UHGV virus genome: UHGV-0173695 | Reading direction: 5' to 3' (one strand) | DNA length: 24,637 nt | Source of the DNA: a virus | Part shown: in pieces, positions 12,577 through 17,992 of the stretch | How the letters are laid out: the number at the start of each line of letters is the position of its first letter | Position numbering within the stretch: position 1 is the first letter of the stretch | The notes under the pieces: model-generated | Databases searched by the model: none | Told to the model about the DNA's origin: nothing | The model's input: only the letters and a program-made list of their open reading frames with translations | Program-made: the position numbers and the translations under genes

Positions 12577-12872
12577 GTTTGAAAATGAGCATATATTTAA
12601 CACGCGCGTTAGCTTGAGTTGACTAAAAATTTCAGTGGATTGGGCGAGGTGAAACTATAAACGCAAAATCCCAGTGACTAGCTAACAACAATCCCAGAGT
12701 GTGTTTGAATCTGGAGGGGTTAATATGAAAGATTGTTTGACAAATTTGATGTTTTCTAAATGCGTTAACCACTATGAGGCGGAGAGTGCATCTCCGCCTT
12801 TGTATGTGCGTCGGGCATGGCACGCTCGTTTCGTTTGTGCGCCCGTTCAGGGTTTCATTCTCTGATATTCAG

Positions 12873-13160
12873 TCAGCGTGGATAAATTAACTTGAATTTG
12901 AGGAAGTTTTGTTTAATCCAGTCTTTAACATTTTCCCTTCCCTGAATACCTGATGGTAAGTGTTCGTGAATCATCCATTCGACAATGAGTTTCTCTTTCA
13001 GGGAGTATGCCTTAAAGGAATTAAGCATATTTAGTACTTCATAACCCTCTTTGCGGCTAAACCGATGGCGGTCAGCAGCGGTTTTCGTGGGATCATCTCC
13101 TGGCAAAGCAGTCCAACTGTAATCGTCATAAAATAAATCGCTTCTTTTAATATCGGTCAT
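12873..13160 (-). CDS. Hypothetical protein, 95 aa, AT-rich; cargo gene at the tin/old position
   Basis: Complete ORF; weak Shine-Dalgarno (AAGGA) upstream; a stem-loop (CCACCTC...GAGGTGG) lies in the 66-bp gap from the upstream gene; no family recognised. Confidence 0.45.
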   Translation of the reverse strand: MTDIKRSDLFYDDYSWTALPGDDPTKTAADRHRFSRKEGYEVLNMLNSFKAYSLKEKLIVEWMIHEHLPSGIQGRENVKDWIKQNFLKFKLIYPR

Positions 13161-13226
13161 TTGATTATCCTTTTCAGAAGAACCACCTCTCCAACTATTG
13201 TTGAGGTGGTGAAAAAGCAGAAATCG

Positions 13227-13505
13227 TTATGCAGCTTTGAGCAGTGCGCTGCTCATTGCATAGTCGTACCCAAGCATGTATGCCTCAAAGGCGTCTTTAT
13301 GTCTGACTGTGCCAGCCTGGCTATATGGAATATTTGCCAGGAAGGAATCATCTTTAGCTTTAGGAATACCGATCATTGCGTGAAGTACACCAAGCTCGTA
13401 TGCGCAGGCAGCGCAGCGGTGGCGGCCTGTCTGTCCCTGGTTATCGGGAAGGTGTGAGTATTGGGGGTTGTATCGGTGGGAGTTTTTACAAATCTTTATA
13501 CCCAT
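13227..13505 (-). CDS. Hypothetical protein, 92 aa; cargo gene at the tin/old position
   Basis: Complete ORF with GAGGT about 9 nt upstream of the ATG; no family recognised; the overlapping plus-strand ORFs look less protein-like. Confidence 0.45.
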   Translation of the reverse strand: MGIKICKNSHRYNPQYSHLPDNQGQTGRHRCAACAYELGVLHAMIGIPKAKDDSFLANIPYSQAGTVRHKDAFEAYMLGYDYAMSSALLKAA

Positions 13506-13611
13506 ATTTGATTTACCTCAATAAAATGAGGTGTTCACCTTTACATGGGCACACGCAGAAAATACGATTCCGGCGAGCTCAAGAGGTAGATGACACCTCG
13601 ATTTCTTTGGC

Positions 13612-13642
13612 GCCCCAATAGTTACCGCTATTGGGGCGTTTT
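13612..13642 (+). terminator. Rho-independent terminator-like hairpin (plus strand)
   Basis: Perfect 10-bp stem GCCCCAATAG / CTATTGGGGC with loop ttaccg, followed by GTTTT. Confidence 0.5.
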
Positions 13643-13784
13643 CCTATGCATGACACACAAACAAAGTGGTCATATCGTGATCGATCCTACAAAATCCCAT
13701 ACAACTGTCAAGGGTATTGATCGTTTTAATCGATAGATAAATCAATATCTATCTGTTTAACAGATCGATTATTAGGGTAAACAT

Positions 13785-13807
13785 GAAAAAACACCCGTGA
13801 AGGGTGT
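13785..13807 (-). terminator. Rho-independent terminator downstream of the parR-like gene (minus strand)
   Basis: Minus-strand hairpin ACACCC-ttca-CGGGTGT followed by a T-run (plus strand AAAAAACACCCGTGAAGGGTGT), 8 bp after the ParR stop. Confidence 0.55.
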
Positions 13808-13814
13808 TTGTAGG

Positions 13815-14129
13815 TTATTCTGGGAAAAACTCCTGAATGTTCCTTTTTAACTGGCTCTTACTGTGACTGTTTTCTGTTGCAGATGTGCCAGTATGCTTGT
13901 TTCGGATGTTATTTCTTGGTGGTATTGCTTCCTCTTCCTGCCATTCAGCCAGCCAGTAAGCAAAGGCGGGATCGCTTTTAATAAGCGCCAGTCCAGCCAG
14001 AAATGCCGCGCGTTGCGCGCGGCTGCGTTCGGAGGCTGGCAGGCTGTCGAGATAATTACACGCTTCTCGTTCACTCTTGACGGCTGCTGGCTTCAGATAG
14101 AAACTTATCCGTCTGGTTGGAGTCGTCAT
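13815..14129 (-). CDS. parR: ParR-like centromere-binding protein (ribbon-helix-helix, type II partition)
   Basis: Internal start MTTPTRRISFYLKP...NYLDSLPASERSRAQRAAFLAGLALIKSDP closely resembles plasmid R1 ParR as I recall it; AGGAG Shine-Dalgarno 7 nt upstream; start 5 bp after the ParM stop. Track ORF 13815..14264 has an N-terminal extension overlapping parM. Confidence 0.75.
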   Translation of the reverse strand: MTTPTRRISFYLKPAAVKSEREACNYLDSLPASERSRAQRAAFLAGLALIKSDPAFAYWLAEWQEEEAIPPRNNIRNKHTGTSATENSHSKSQLKRNIQEFFPE

Positions 14130-14133
14130 TGGT

Positions 14134-15093
14134 TTACTCCTTGTCCATTGCGTACAGCCCATTAACCAGAGCAAACTGTGGCACCCCGTCCGCGATGAAA
14201 GTCGCATTAACTCCGCAGGCTTCGCGGATAGCGGGTGCCACAATCTCCGCCCCGCCACCGACAACCATCACCCGCCCGTAACCCGAAAACCCCGCCAGCG
14301 CGCGGATCACTCGTTGTTTCAGTGTTTCTTCCTTTTCACGAATAACCGCCATCAGGCTGGCGTAATGCGCGTCATTGTGGATGTGCTGGCGCAACCAGGC
14401 TTCATCATGGCGATGTTCGATAATGGTATTGGCGATGTGGTGACTGGTGCGCATACCGTTAGTGGCCATCACCGACAGTACGGCATCGGCCATCAGAGAA
14501 ACGCCTACGTGTGGATCGCAAAACACCTGGCTGATACCTGCCAGTTGCCCCTGAACCTTTGCCACATCCAGCGTGGTTCCGCCCAAATCCACAATCAGCA
14601 GGGATTCAAACGGACTCATGTCAGCCAGTGCCTTAAAGCCAGCCGGAATGGATTCAGGCATAACCCGCACGTTACGGATAGTGAATGCTTCGCCGTTCTG
14701 GTACTCCACCGGGCGCATAACGTTCGCTTTTTTGCGGTTGATGTTGGCCATGTCCGGCTGTGCGTTTGTGTCGAAATATTCGCTCAGTGGCAGGGTGACA
14801 ACCACATCCACTTCCTGTGGTGTGATGCCTGATTTGACCAGCGCGTGATGAATGGCAATGACATTCACATCGCTGTACTGGTATTGCGTGTCGGTCGTCT
14901 GGACAAAGCGATCGCTGACCGGATCAAAACCATAGCGCACGCCATCAAGCATGTAGTTCGCGGGCTGCGTGCCACCGAACGGCGCAGACCATTCCGACTT
15001 GAAGCTGTTTGGGCTGATGGCGTTGCGGCGTTCGCCGTTCTCAGTCCATGCCAGCTTGATGTTGGTGGAGCCGTCATCGATACAAATTTTCAT
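14134..15093 (-). CDS. parM: ParM/StbA-family actin-like ATPase (type II partition motor)
   Basis: 319 aa; N-terminus MKICIDDGSTNIKLAW (R1 ParM begins MLVFIDDGSTNIKLQW as I recall); further matches ISPNSFK, YSDVNVIAIHHAL, DLGGTTLD, VMVVGGGAE. Confidence 0.9.
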   Translation of the reverse strand: MKICIDDGSTNIKLAWTENGERRNAISPNSFKSEWSAPFGGTQPANYMLDGVRYGFDPVSDRFVQTTDTQYQYSDVNVIAIHHALVKSGITPQEVDVVVTLPLSEYFDTNAQPDMANINRKKANVMRPVEYQNGEAFTIRNVRVMPESIPAGFKALADMSPFESLLIVDLGGTTLDVAKVQGQLAGISQVFCDPHVGVSLMADAVLSVMATNGMRTSHHIANTIIEHRHDEAWLRQHIHNDAHYASLMAVIREKEETLKQRVIRALAGFSGYGRVMVVGGGAEIVAPAIREACGVNATFIADGVPQFALVNGLYAMDKE

Positions 15094-15120
15094 GTCGCTT
15101 TTCCTTATGTTGATTAATTA

Positions 15121-15240
15121 ATCGTTTACGGGATTCTGAAATCCCGTTTTTGCCTGTTTTATGCGCGCTTCATATATCGCGGCGCGTTTTTTGCTCATTT
15201 ACGGGATTTGTGAATCCCGTTTCTGTCTGTTTTTTGTTTC
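15121..15240. repeat. parC-like region: two imperfect direct repeats of about 36 bp, each with the palindrome ACGGGATT-N4-AATCCCGT, upstream of parM
   Basis: Palindromes at 15128-15147 and 15201-15220, 73 bp apart, each followed by a T-rich tail (TTTTTGCCTGTTTT / TTTCTGTCTGTTTT). The first lies between the A stop and the parM start; the second lies within the last codons of A. Confidence 0.5.
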
Positions 15241-17992
15241 CACTGGTCAGGCCACCCCGCAGCAGGTCTGCTTTGCGGCGGGCGCGTTCAGTGGTTTCAC
15301 TGATTCTCTGTGCGTGCTCTGCGTCGCGGATGGCGCGCAGCATGTCAGAAAGCACGGTAACGGGTGTTTTCATGGTGTTCTGGTCTTGCTGAAGTGTGGA
15401 TGCCAGGCGTGCGGCGGCTTCGGGGTCTGATGTCCCCAGCTGTTCCAGATAGCTGGCGACCGGGTTATGGCGGATCTCCGTACTGCTTACGCCGTGGTTA
15501 CGGCTCAGGCGCTGCCAGAGCTGCGTGATCCGGCTGTCCGGTCGGGTATCCGGTTTGCGTACAATTTCAAATCCCTGCGGTGCAATGTTGCTGCCGTCAA
15601 CGTACAGACTGCCGCCCCGTAACAGGTGCTGCATCTGCTGTTCACCGATATGCAGGCCGAGAGATTCAGCAGACTCCCGCCATTCTTTAGCGAGTAGTTC
15701 GTGGTTATCAGGCAAAGGCCGCTGCTGTTTGCGGCTCTGTGTCCAGCTCTGCATTTCATCACGGCTGTTTTTTGCCTGTTTGTCACGAAGCGAACGCATC
15801 AGCGCCCGGCGTTCGTGCCGTTTCAGTGAGCGCATCCATTCGTTCACTTCAACGCCGTCAGGGAGCTGCGGCCACGGTGCTGGCCGTTCTTCCGGCTGTT
15901 CTGTCCCGTTGTTGTCCGTTTCCTGTACACGGGGACAGTTATTGCCACGAGTCCAAGGGGCGGCAGGGCCGCCCTGAAGGTCAAAACCATTTTCGTGGGC
16001 GTTGTCTTCTGGTTCTGGTTTACGTCTTACCAACTTCCAGTTATCCGGATGCGTGCACACACGGGAGGATTCCCCGATGAGTGGTGACCAGATCCCGTAA
16101 ATCTGTACGCTCTGTTCGCCGTAATCGTTCAGCTCATCTGCGAGGTCGTAGGCGGTGCGAATCAGGTAGTCCTTGCGTGGAACAAGCACGCCACCCTGTT
16201 TTTCAATGTAGGTGGCAAAACACCCGGCATCGGCGGCAGCGAGTACCGCATCCATTGCATCATCTTTCAGCCGTTGCGGGCCTTCCGGATTGCGTGCCAT
16301 CTGGCTGGCAAGGCGGCGCAGTTCACGCCACACCTGACGGGAGGGGATGCCAAAGAACTGGAACTGACGGACCCGGTGAAGGCGCGCCCAGCCGATGGCG
16401 CGCTCCACGCTCTCGGCCATTGATTTTCCGGTTTCGTGGTCAACGCGTGGCTTGCCCGTTTTCGGGTCGATGCCATCCACGGCGCGGCTGTCCAGGTTCT
16501 TTCCGATGTAGGTAGCGATGTAGCTGGTTGGTGTGCCTTTTGAGCCGTCGACATACTCCGCCTTAAAACGCGGAGTTATGTCATCGCCCAGCTCGTGGCG
16601 GTCCTCCTGAATGGCAATATCGCAGACGTGGGACACGATGGTTTCAATCTCGTCCGGATGTGCAAAGACCATCATATGCCAGTGCACAGTGCCGTCATGG
16701 TGAGGCTCCACCGTGCGGATGCCATACCAGCGCAGGCCGTCGCGGTTCAGTTTTTTGCGGACCGCCGCAAAAAACGTGTTAACCAGGTAATCGCTGGAGT
16801 CGCGCATGGTGGCCCCGTTCCATTTGGGGTTCGGATGACCGTTCTCCGTTGTTGCGTGGTATTTTGACGGGCAGGTGACGGTCAGAAACACCGCTCTGTC
16901 GCCACGGGCTTCGGCCAGAAGTTCCAGTCCCTTCATGGTGGCCATCATTTCTGCCTTACGGTGAACCGGGTTACTTACTCCCGCGTAATACACCGTCTCG
17001 AGATCAATCGTGAACCCGTCTTCATTTTCCAGCGTGAAACTTTTCAGGAAATCGCGTGTTTTCTCGCGCTGTGCGCGAAACTCGCTTAACGCGTCCTGGC
17101 TCAGATAGGGCGATGTTTTTCTGGAAACCAGACAGGCGGCGCGGAGTTGTTCTTCCCGCCACTCGCAACGTAACAGCCACAGTTTGCGTTTCCACCATTC
17201 CGCACAGGTCAGGCGAAGGATTGCGCCCGGCAGCAGCTCCGTGTCTGGTTCGTTCCTCCGGTCTTTGTCTGTTGTCAGTGCGTCATAATGTGGAGGCATG
17301 GCGTGCAGGTGTAACGCCATGCGGGCCAGCATCTGATACGCCTTCAGCGTTACATCCATGGTCAGCTCGCCATCGGTCGCGCCAAAGCCATCGCAGAGTT
17401 TTTCGAAGGTGCTGCTGAACATCGCCGCCGTCATGGTGGCCAGCGTCTGTATCTGGTGTTTGTTGAGCTGCGGCAGGTAAAGCAAATCGTCCAGGCGTTC
17501 GCGTCCGGCAAGGGAGCGATAACCCGGTGTCAGCCAGCGGTGATCGGTGCGGTCCAGACGTTCGAATATTTTGCGCAGGGTTCCGCGTGCATAGCGTTCC
17601 GCCTGCCAGCTCTTTTTGCCTTTCCGGCGATCGGCTTCCTGTTTTTTGCGCAGGAAGGAGAGGTGGCGAATAAGCGGATCGCGCAGATAGGACGGCAGCA
17701 GGCGCAGCGAGGCCATGGCTTCATCCACTGCGCCGCGTGCCTGTTTTCTGGCGTCTCCTGCCAGTGTGATGGTTTTGTCCTGTTTTTCCTGTGCGTCCAG
17801 GCTTTTATTAATCAGGTTGCCCAGCGGCGTGGCGGAGAACGCCGCATCAGCCATTTCCTTGCGGCGCTCGTTCTCTGCCCGGTAGGCATCCAGCCAGGAG
17901 GAAAGCGCGGATTCAGGAGCGGGGATCCCCGTTCCTTCACGCCCCACTGCGTGGCGCGGTTGTTGCCAGTCCCTGATGTACTCTGCCGTCAT
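15170..17992 (-). CDS. A: Replication initiation protein A (rolling-circle endonuclease), P2 gpA family
   Basis: 940 aa; contains HWHMMVFAH and TSYIATYIGKNLD (HUH-type and catalytic-Tyr motifs of gpA-like initiators). Longer than the roughly 761 aa recalled for P2 gpA. Confidence 0.9.
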   Translation of the reverse strand: MTAEYIRDWQQPRHAVGREGTGIPAPESALSSWLDAYRAENERRKEMADAAFSATPLGNLINKSLDAQEKQDKTITLAGDARKQARGAVDEAMASLRLLPSYLRDPLIRHLSFLRKKQEADRRKGKKSWQAERYARGTLRKIFERLDRTDHRWLTPGYRSLAGRERLDDLLYLPQLNKHQIQTLATMTAAMFSSTFEKLCDGFGATDGELTMDVTLKAYQMLARMALHLHAMPPHYDALTTDKDRRNEPDTELLPGAILRLTCAEWWKRKLWLLRCEWREEQLRAACLVSRKTSPYLSQDALSEFRAQREKTRDFLKSFTLENEDGFTIDLETVYYAGVSNPVHRKAEMMATMKGLELLAEARGDRAVFLTVTCPSKYHATTENGHPNPKWNGATMRDSSDYLVNTFFAAVRKKLNRDGLRWYGIRTVEPHHDGTVHWHMMVFAHPDEIETIVSHVCDIAIQEDRHELGDDITPRFKAEYVDGSKGTPTSYIATYIGKNLDSRAVDGIDPKTGKPRVDHETGKSMAESVERAIGWARLHRVRQFQFFGIPSRQVWRELRRLASQMARNPEGPQRLKDDAMDAVLAAADAGCFATYIEKQGGVLVPRKDYLIRTAYDLADELNDYGEQSVQIYGIWSPLIGESSRVCTHPDNWKLVRRKPEPEDNAHENGFDLQGGPAAPWTRGNNCPRVQETDNNGTEQPEERPAPWPQLPDGVEVNEWMRSLKRHERRALMRSLRDKQAKNSRDEMQSWTQSRKQQRPLPDNHELLAKEWRESAESLGLHIGEQQMQHLLRGGSLYVDGSNIAPQGFEIVRKPDTRPDSRITQLWQRLSRNHGVSSTEIRHNPVASYLEQLGTSDPEAAARLASTLQQDQNTMKTPVTVLSDMLRAIRDAEHAQRISETTERARRKADLLRGGLTSGNKKQTETGFTNPVNEQKTRRDI

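What the first reader, a model, noticed from the sequence alone, without database searches (positions are those of the whole stretch)
15170..15240. 3' end of replication gene A overlaps the second parC-like palindrome
The A ORF is 940 aa, longer than the roughly 761 aa I recall for P2 gpA, and its last codons (FTNPVNEQKTRRDI) are encoded by the second repeat of the par cassette. Insertion of the par module may have replaced or extended the native 3' end of A.
Basis: inference. Interest (0 to 1): 0.4.

Follow-up and report, generated by a model that had tools for sequence, protein, structure and literature searches.

The report
Replication gene runs into partition cassette
In this P88-like (P2-family) E. 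coli prophage the last 28 codons of replication gene A come from the junction with a plasmid-type partition cassette sitting in a known cargo hotspot, so the overlap is real but is an ordinary by-product of module swapping.

Summary
A is a 940-aa ORF (15170-17992, minus strand). Its stop lies between two perfect 20-bp palindromes (15128-15147 and 15201-15220), and the distal palindrome encodes TGFTNPV.

The window is a P88-like (Xuanwuvirus) prophage. The same junction occurs in 1287 of 5426 complete E. coli genomes, almost always on the chromosome.

- Par-free relatives carry an A of 927 aa. They share the sequence up to residue 912 (...RRKADLL-R/Q) and then diverge, so only the last 28 codons depend on the cargo.
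- The last 21 codons travel with the par cassette. In two loci they terminate a different, 155-aa ORF.
- The tail is under relaxed constraint: pN/pS 0.71, against 0.22 for the 50 A codons before it and 0.05 for parM.
- Most of the 179-aa excess over P2 gpA is native to this lineage.

The palindromes are probably a two-site ParR centromere/operator. Distant cassettes in Plesiomonas and Hafnia P2-like phages keep two GGGA-N10-CCC sites 72-74 nt apart, with the distal one again inside the upstream ORF.

The gpA-gpQ hotspot and its partition systems were already reported by Rousset et al. 2022. Interest is low to moderate.

The parts
15257..17992 (-). Replication gene A, residues 1-912: the part shared with par-free P88-like relatives
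   Evidence: Phage_GPA domain at aa 179-503. 98% identical to P88 gpA, which is also 940 aa. DNA and protein homology to the par-free loci L088, L091, L093 and L090 runs up to ...RRKA-x-LL-(R/Q). pN/pS is 0.22 for the 50 codons ending at residue 908.
15173..15256 (-). A tail, residues 913-940 (GGLTSGNKKQTETGFTNPVNEQKTRRDI): junction- and cassette-encoded, weakly constrained
   Evidence: Absent from par-free A genes. The segment 15173-15234 is attached to a different ORF in L092 and L043. pN/pS is 0.71 over the last 32 codons, and natural frameshift variants exist in the A6 run.
15170..15172 (-). A stop codon (TGA), lying between the two repeat copies
   Evidence: Invariant in 61 haplotypes.
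15195..15236 (-). Distal 42-nt repeat copy with palindrome ACGGGATTCACAAATCCCGT (15201-15220): putative distal ParR site, inside the A ORF
   Evidence: Positional counterparts exist in the Plesiomonas (L099) and Hafnia (L100) cassettes.
15122..15163 (-). Proximal 42-nt repeat copy with palindrome ACGGGATTTCAGAATCCCGT (15128-15147): putative proximal ParR site/operator
15094..15121 (-). parM leader with the conserved ATTAATCAA...TAAGGAA (candidate -10-like element plus Shine-Dalgarno)
   Evidence: The least variable non-coding stretch among 61 haplotypes. The motif is shared with L099 and L100. No consensus sigma-70 promoter was found, so a promoter here is an inference.
14134..15093 (-). parM (actin-like segregation ATPase), 319 aa
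   Evidence: StbA_N E 1.8e-82 and ParM C-terminal domain E 1.3e-68. pN/pS 0.05 over 69 haplotypes.
13815..14129 (-). parR/stbB (DNA-binding adaptor), 104 aa
   Evidence: Plasmid_stab_B E 8.4e-26 and phrog_2515 'partition protein'. The N-terminus MTTPTRRISFYLKP is invariant across alleles.
13789..13809 (-). Intrinsic-terminator-like hairpin plus T-run just after parR: the likely end of the A-parM-parR transcription unit
12585..15256 (.). Variable cargo hotspot between gpA and the cos/portal side; the par cassette occupies about 13789-15256
   Evidence: Homology among loci with different cargo resumes at about 12580 on the portal side and at about 15257 on the A side. The hotspot is described in PMC9122126.

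Best explanation
The window is a P88-like (Xuanwuvirus, P2-family) prophage. Its cargo hotspot between replication gene A and the portal gene holds a type II (ParM/ParR) partition cassette. The left recombination junction of that hotspot lies inside the A reading frame, after codon 912. A therefore has no stop codon of its own and runs into whatever cargo lies downstream until the first in-frame stop. With the par cassette this adds 28 codons that pass through the distal of two palindromic repeats and end in the spacer between them.

I infer three further points.
- The two palindromes, 73 bp apart (about 7 helical turns), are the ParR-binding centromere/operator (parC).
- The protein tail they encode is unselected filler.
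- A, parM and parR form one transcription unit that ends at the terminator after parR, so the partition proteins are made together with A when the early operon is on. They would then act on the free circular phage genome.

Shown here: the junction position, the linkage of the tail to the cassette, the relaxed constraint on the tail, and the conservation of the two-site layout. Inferred: ParR binding, co-transcription, and the biological role.
For: Identity of the element.
- 92-98% DNA identity to P88, P884B11, phiSM and related phages. P88 gpA is also 940 aa.
- The junction is present in 1287 of 5426 complete E. coli genomes; 1532 of 1534 matching places are chromosomal.

Junction inside A.
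- Four different downstream contexts share A up to RRKA-x-LL-(R/Q) and then diverge: par (window), Dam methylase + AAA ATPase (L088/L091), AAA ATPase + S8 peptidase (L093), and L090.

The tail belongs to the cassette.
- In L092 and L043 cassette homology starts at window 15234. There it terminates a 155-aa ORF with ...KQTETGFTNPVNEQKTRRDI, while A ends separately.
- Only the last 22 residues of that ORF match the end of the P88-type A profile phrog_6857.

Relaxed constraint.
- pN/pS is 0.71 for the last 32 codons, 0.22 for the preceding 50 A codons and 0.05 for parM.
- Several frameshifted tails occur in natural sequences.

The palindromes as parC.
- They are unique in the window, with 0 matches in 100 shuffles, and lie immediately upstream of parM.
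- Cassettes with 62-63% ParM identity in Plesiomonas and Hafnia P2-like phages keep two GGGA-N10-CCC sites 72-74 nt apart, in register with those here. Their ParR N-terminus (TRR[I/V]SFYL) is conserved.
- The Serratia cassette has a different ParR N-terminus (RKISFYL) and different repeats.

Operon.
- No terminator-like site lies on the coding strand between A and parM, and there is a clear one after parR.

Literature.
Against: - No ParR binding data exist.
- Within the P88 group the palindromes are no better conserved than their flanks. 44 of 83 sequences have at least one substitution in the distal palindrome, and P88 itself has three.
- The closest plasmid ParMR loci (53% ParM identity; IncL/M and IncFII) use R1-like direct iterons, not palindromes.
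- No consensus sigma-70 promoter was found in parC, so autoregulation is unproven.
- The pN/pS values come from pooled pairwise counts on related sequences over 32 codons and are rough.
- The upstream ORF overlaps the distal site in three lineages. This could mean the overlap is selected rather than incidental.
Confidence: 0.75

Rival explanations
1. The overlap is functional and selected. Placing the distal ParR site inside the last codons of the upstream ORF couples the two modules. For example, bound ParR could act as a roadblock on early-operon read-through. Alternatively, translation up to the middle of parC could prevent Rho-dependent polarity, so that parMR is expressed together with A.
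For: The ORF upstream of parM overlaps the distal site in four independent arrangements: A in E. coli, orf155 in L092/L043, A in Plesiomonas L099, and orf167 in Hafnia L100. The A stop codon is invariant in 61 haplotypes.
Against: - All three reading frames are open through the palindrome and close within 1-12 codons after it, so any upstream ORF fused there would overlap it by default (sequence).
- Phage genomes are compact, and parC reaches about 140 nt upstream of the parM start codon.
- In the Serratia cassette (L102) A stops before the repeats.
- The tail's amino-acid sequence and even its frame vary.
Confidence: 0.12
2. The tail is a native, functional part of A, and the distal palindrome arose secondarily inside it. 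Par-free variants would then be deletions that clipped the A end.
For: RefSeq labels the orphan 22-codon segment in L092 as a remnant of a 'DNA replication protein'. ParMR sits next to gpA in distant P2-like phages, so the association may be old.
Against: - The distal copy is a 42-nt direct repeat of the proximal, non-coding copy.
- Protein-level constraint on the tail is relaxed.
- A proteins of 927, 877, 878, 803, 794 and 761 aa lack the tail entirely.
- The distal site in Plesiomonas is in the same position although the A tail there is unrelated in sequence.
Confidence: 0.08
3. The palindromes are RNA hairpins, not protein-binding sites. They would be intrinsic terminators for plus-strand (antisense) transcripts, or mRNA stability elements.
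For: Both are scored as terminator-like on the + strand, with an 8-bp stem, 4-nt loop and T-rich tail. Predicted hairpin energies are -10 to -11 kcal/mol, z -2 to -5.
Against: - No gene is transcribed toward them on the + strand, and on the coding strand there is no U-tract.
- Substitutions in the stems give wobble pairs on opposite strands for the two copies, so no strand shows consistent compensation.
- The Plesiomonas and Hafnia counterparts keep only the outer GGG/CCC with a roughly 10-nt centre. That makes a poor hairpin but fits a dimer-binding site. They also keep the 72-74 nt spacing.
Confidence: 0.05

Closest known systems
gpA-gpQ (old/tin, 'TO') cargo hotspot of P2-like phages (Rousset et al. 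2022, PMC9122126; Nucleic Acids Res 2026, PMC13586616)
   Same: Same place, between replication gene A and the portal gene next to cos. Same behaviour: alternative cargo in otherwise near-identical phages (par; methylase + ATPase; ATPase + S8 peptidase). The paper already states that about a fourth of E. coli P2-like phages carry a putative partition system there. I find the junction in 1287 of 5426 complete genomes.
   Different: The passages I searched in those papers treat the hotspot as lying between genes. Here the left junction is mapped inside the A ORF, after codon 912, so the last residues of A change with the cargo. I found no description of this, nor of the two palindromes, in those passages.
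ParMRC (type II) partition locus of plasmid R1 / NR1 stbAB
   Same: Gene order: cis site, then parM, then parR. ParM matches both Pfam ParM domains over their full length and ParR matches Plasmid_stab_B. The cis site has two blocks just upstream of parM. The nearest plasmid loci also have two repeat blocks 73 nt apart.
   Different: ParM is at most 53% identical to plasmid ParMs. The cis site is two 20-bp palindromes rather than two arrays of direct 11-bp-type iterons. The cassette sits in an integrating phage, and its distal site is inside a coding region.
srpMRC of SXT/R391 integrative conjugative elements (Carraro et al. 2015, PMC4489591)
   Same: A type II partition system carried by an element that normally lives integrated. 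It was shown to stabilise the excised, replicating circular form, and its centromere has a few direct and inverted repeats upstream of the motor gene. This is the best functional precedent for a par cassette in an integrating element.
   Different: The element type is different (ICE with relaxase-driven replication), and according to that paper SrpR is unrelated in sequence to ParR. Function here is untested.
AlpAC/alpS of Corynebacterium prophage CGP3 (Donovan et al. 2015, PMC4446434)
   Same: A prophage-encoded actin-like protein plus an adaptor that binds repeats upstream of the operon. It is induced early after excision and needed for efficient replication of the circular phage DNA.
   Different: The gene order is reversed (adaptor first), the actin family is distant, and the host and phage are different.

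Membership tests
P2-type replication initiator gpA (Phage_GPA, rolling-circle nickase) | Full-length match to the Phage_GPA domain | tested here: met
   PF05840, E 2.6e-129, profile positions 1-321 of 321 at residues 179-503. 31% identity to P2 gpA over residues 77-708 and 42% to SEN8 gpA over residues 9-796.
P2-type replication initiator gpA (Phage_GPA, rolling-circle nickase) | Origin (nick site) located inside the A gene, as in P2 | tested here: inconclusive
   The P2 nick-site sequence GCCTCGGAGTCCTGTCAA has no match in the window at up to 3 mismatches. An origin of different sequence cannot be excluded or located with these tools.
Xuanwuvirus (P88-like Peduoviridae) | High nucleotide identity and synteny with P88 | tested here: met
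   97.6% identity over 92% of a 4.4-kb query, with the same gene order of terminase, portal, cargo, parR, parM, A.
Type II (ParMRC) partition system | Actin-like ParM ATPase | tested here: met
   StbA_N E 1.8e-82 and ParM C-terminal domain E 1.3e-68, both over the full profile length. pN/pS 0.05.
Type II (ParMRC) partition system | Small DNA-binding adaptor ParR encoded directly downstream of parM | tested here: met
   Plasmid_stab_B E 8.4e-26. The start codon is 4 nt after the parM stop. The N- and C-termini are conserved across alleles.
Type II (ParMRC) partition system | Repeated cis-acting centromere (parC) upstream of parM that also contains the promoter | tested here: inconclusive
   Two repeats are present, and their layout is conserved in distant cassettes. 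They are palindromes rather than iteron arrays, and no consensus promoter was found.
Type II (ParMRC) partition system | ParR binds parC, and the locus stabilises an unstable replicon | not testable with these tools
   Needs EMSA or footprinting and a plasmid-stability assay.
P2-like gpA-gpQ cargo hotspot | Alternative, unrelated gene sets at the same position in otherwise homologous phages | tested here: met
   Par, Dam methylase + AAA_15/21, AAA + S8 peptidase, and orf155 + par all lie between conserved A and portal flanks.

The most novel reading that the evidence does not exclude
The partition cassette is wired as the distal end of the phage's early replication operon, with its distal ParR site deliberately placed inside the last codons of the upstream gene. 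ParR bound there would gate read-through from A into parMR, or early transcription would strip ParR off. Either way, replication and positioning or segregation of the free circular phage genome would be coupled. This would allow a transient or stable plasmid-like state in a phage that normally integrates.
Probability: 0.1. Interest if true: 0.55.

Novelty: new member of a known kind. Interest (0 to 1): 0.25.

Why it matters
Three modest points.

1. The left edge of the well-studied P2 cargo hotspot lies inside the replication gene. The C-terminus of gpA is therefore a patchwork that changes with the cargo. This matters for annotation: A length varies from 761 to 946 aa, and orphan 'replication protein' fragments appear upstream of parM. 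It also matters for delimiting hotspot cargo automatically.

2. It points to a likely two-palindrome centromere for a ParMR family found in about a quarter of complete E. coli genomes and never tested experimentally. Why an integrating phage keeps a partition system under strong purifying selection is an open question.

3. The conserved gpA-parC-parM-parR arrangement in Escherichia, Plesiomonas, Hafnia and Serratia phages suggests the cassette serves the phage's replication phase rather than being random cargo.

Tried and rejected
- Searching the last 200 aa of A against the large protein database returned only 13 hits. Most were partial E. coli proteins and none was a distant relative of the tail. 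It did yield the informative alternative tails.
- P0013 came from a frameshift-ridden assembly and was discarded.
- tblastn of the tail against phage records found it only in Xuanwuvirus, plus a marginal match (E 0.09) to the end of SW5 gpA.
- The genome-contig scan with ParM gave only 3 near-identical loci, because the peptide patterns were too strict. Distant cassettes came from the protein search instead.
- I looked for the same palindromes upstream of the closest plasmid ParMs. They have R1-like direct iterons instead, so a plasmid donor of this parC was not found.
- The P2 ori nick sequence was not found in the window.
- The consensus promoter scan of 13700-15500 found nothing. The promoter suggestion rests only on a conserved ATTAATCAA motif.
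- I checked stem substitutions for RNA-type compensation. Wobble-compatible changes fall on opposite strands for the two copies, so there is no support for an RNA structure.
- I tested whether the palindromes are more conserved than their flanks within the P88 group. They are not.
- The idea that par explains the 940 vs 761 aa difference is rejected, because the par-free A is 927 aa.

Full report
**1. What is there**

The minus strand of the window carries a 940-aa ORF at 15170..17992. It ends ...ETGFTNPVNEQKTRRDI. It has a full-length Phage_GPA domain at residues 179-503, E 2.6e-129.

Seventy-six bases downstream of it parM begins (14134..15093; both ParM Pfam domains, E 1e-82 and 1e-68). parR/stbB follows 4 nt after parM (13815..14129; Plasmid_stab_B, E 8e-26). 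A terminator-like hairpin with a T-run lies just after parR, at 13809-13789.

Upstream of parM there are two perfect palindromes ACGGGATT-N4-AATCCCGT, at 15128-15147 and 15201-15220. Each sits in a 42-nt direct repeat (81% identical, 73 nt start to start). The pattern occurs nowhere else in the window and never in 100 shuffles.

The A stop (15170-15172) lies between the two copies. The distal palindrome encodes residues 925-931 (TGFTNPV). The last seven residues are encoded by the spacer between the repeats.

**2. What the element is**

The region is 92-98% identical to phage P88, Xuanwuvirus P884B11, Citrobacter phiSM and related E. coli phages. P88's annotated replication endonuclease is also 940 aa and is followed by ParM and a partition protein.

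The 701-bp junction (14900-15600) is found in 1372 of 5426 complete E. coli genomes. It is essentially full-length in 1287 of them, and 1532 of 1534 matching places are chromosomal. This is a very common integrated P2-family prophage.

**3. Where the similarity of A ends**

| gpA | Length (aa) | Similarity to the window's A extends to residue |
|---|---|---|
| P2 | 761 | 708 |
| Klebsiella ST437-phi4.1 | 794 | 796 |
| SEN8 | 803 | 796 |
| SW5 | 878 | 856 |

A multiple alignment shows the C-terminus growing stepwise across lineages.

The decisive comparison is with close relatives that lack par.
- L093 (E. coli JNE181771) has an A of 927 aa followed by an AAA ATPase and an S8 peptidase.
- L088 and L091 have the A end followed by a Dam-type methylase and an AAA_15/21 ATPase.
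- L090 has yet another downstream sequence.

At the DNA level all of these match the window up to ...CGCCGCAAAGC-GAC-CTG-CTG-C(G/A)G, that is ...RRKA-x-LL-(R/Q), residue 912, window ~15257. Beyond that point they are unrelated. Only the last 28 codons (15173-15256) are specific to the par context. The net length effect of par is 13 aa, not 179.

**4. The tail belongs to the cassette**

In E. coli O169:H41 (L092) and in an IMG/VR contig (L043), A is 877 and 871 aa and has its own stop. A 155-aa ORF with cysteine pairs follows it. That ORF reads into the par cassette and ends ...KQTETGFTNPVNEQKTRRDI at the same stop.

Cassette homology in these loci begins at window 15234. The core of that ORF matches phrog_21788. 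Only its last 22 residues match the end of phrog_6857, the P88-type A family. The last 21 codons of A therefore travel with parC-parM-parR, not with A.

**5. Constraint**

I compared the junction sequences from the roughly 90 related loci fetched; 61 distinct haplotypes were usable, 50 of them ungapped.
- pN/pS is 0.22 for the 50 A codons before the break and 0.71 for the last 32 codons.
- parM gives 0.05 over 69 haplotypes.
- Many amino-acid variants of the tail exist, and several are frameshifted, mostly at the A6 run at 15231-15236.

These are pooled pairwise counts on related sequences and are only indicative. They agree with a tail that is not selected as protein.

**6. Are the palindromes a centromere?**

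Against:
- Within the P88 group they are no better conserved than their flanks.
- The closest plasmid loci (ParM 53% identical; IncL/M and IncFII) have R1-like direct iterons, although in two blocks 73 nt apart.

For:
- More distant cassettes were found with ParM 62-63% identical in Plesiomonas (L099) and Hafnia (L100) and 58% in Serratia (L102). All sit in P2-like phages directly after gpA, or after gpA plus one small ORF, and before the portal gene.
- Aligned on the parM start, E. coli, Plesiomonas and Hafnia each show two sites in register, 72-74 nt apart. The sites share GGGA-N10-CCC but differ elsewhere.
- Their ParR N-termini share TRR(I/V)SFYL. Serratia has RKISFYL and quite different repeats.

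I read this as a footprint of a two-site ParR-binding parC. Binding itself is not shown.

The distal site lies inside the upstream ORF in Plesiomonas (A, 789 aa, stop directly after the site) and in Hafnia (orf167). It does not in Serratia.

**7. How it most likely works**

The left junction of the hotspot lies inside A, so A has no fixed stop. All three frames are open across the palindrome and close within 1-12 codons after it, so any ORF fused there overlaps the distal site.

No terminator-like site on the coding strand separates A from parM, and the first one follows parR. A consensus promoter was not found in parC. A conserved ATTAATCAA...TAAGGAA precedes the parM start codon in three genera and could be a weak -10 element plus ribosome-binding site.

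I therefore infer that parMR is at least partly expressed as an extension of the early replication operon. That is the period when the phage genome is a free circle.

Experimental precedents for partition systems serving the excised form of integrated elements are srpMRC of SXT/R391 ICEs (PMC4489591) and AlpAC of prophage CGP3 (PMC4446434). One complete assembly holds an entire P88-like genome, integrase included, as a 34.5-kb circular 'plasmid'. This is compatible with such a state but proves nothing.

**8. What is known already**

Rousset et al. 2022 described the gpA-gpQ hotspot. [quoted passage not shown] The phiSM paper lists the gene only as a fitness factor. The P88 paper does not mention it.

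In what I could search I found no description of the junction inside A, of the cargo-dependent A tail, or of the two palindromes. These are details within a known framework.

**9. Verdict**

The finding is an ordinary consequence of modular exchange at a known hotspot. The side results of modest interest are the likely parC architecture and its conservation next to gpA across genera.

Noticed in passing
window 13815-14129 and related loci L007-L098: ParR exists in at least three diverged allelic types among P88-like prophages, while ParM is 99-100% identical. The N-terminus MTTPTRRISFYLKP and the C-terminus NI(Q/R)xFFPE are invariant and the linker between them is hypervariable. The window's allele is a minority type.
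   Followed up: partly
window 12585-13940: This part of the hotspot holds the 3' half of the parR allele, ORF 13227..13505 (phrog_3941, unknown function) and ORF 12873..13160 (phrog_33929, unknown function). It is a rare variant: only 2 of about 90 related loci match it end to end.
   Followed up: partly
L092 5271-5738 (-) and L043 3457-3924 (+): A 155-aa ORF with two cysteine pairs (phrog_21788, unknown function) sits between a shorter A (877/871 aa) and the par cassette. It reads through the distal palindrome to the same stop. RefSeq annotates only its last 22 codons, as a partial 'DNA replication protein' pseudogene.
   Followed up: partly
L103 (NZ_CP148288.1, whole record): A complete P88-like genome is deposited as a circular 34.5-kb plasmid of an E. 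coli isolate from a cat. It includes the integrase, Cox and repressor genes, a Hok/Gef gene and the par cassette. It may be an excised replicating form or a plasmid-state lysogen.
   Followed up: no
L099 4868-4965; L100 4873-4964; L102 4887-4978: ParMR cassettes with 58-63% ParM identity lie directly after gpA in P2-like phages of Plesiomonas, Hafnia and Serratia. ParM is more conserved than gpA (34-55%) or the portal protein (30-46%) between these phages and the window.
   Followed up: partly
window 15231-15236: An A6 run (T6 on the + strand) at the start of the cassette-linked segment shows +1/-1 length variants in 4 of 83 related sequences, giving alternative A tails. These may be real variants or homopolymer sequencing errors.
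   Followed up: no
L097 (NZ_JBQPOM010000071.1): A contig labelled Vagococcus sp. (a Gram-positive genus) carries a ParM 98% identical to the E. coli prophage one. This is probably contamination or mislabelling of the assembly.
   Followed up: no
window 15094-15121: The parM leader is the least variable non-coding stretch of the junction. Its ATTAATCAA...TAAGGAA motif is shared by the E. coli, Plesiomonas and Hafnia cassettes.
   Followed up: partly
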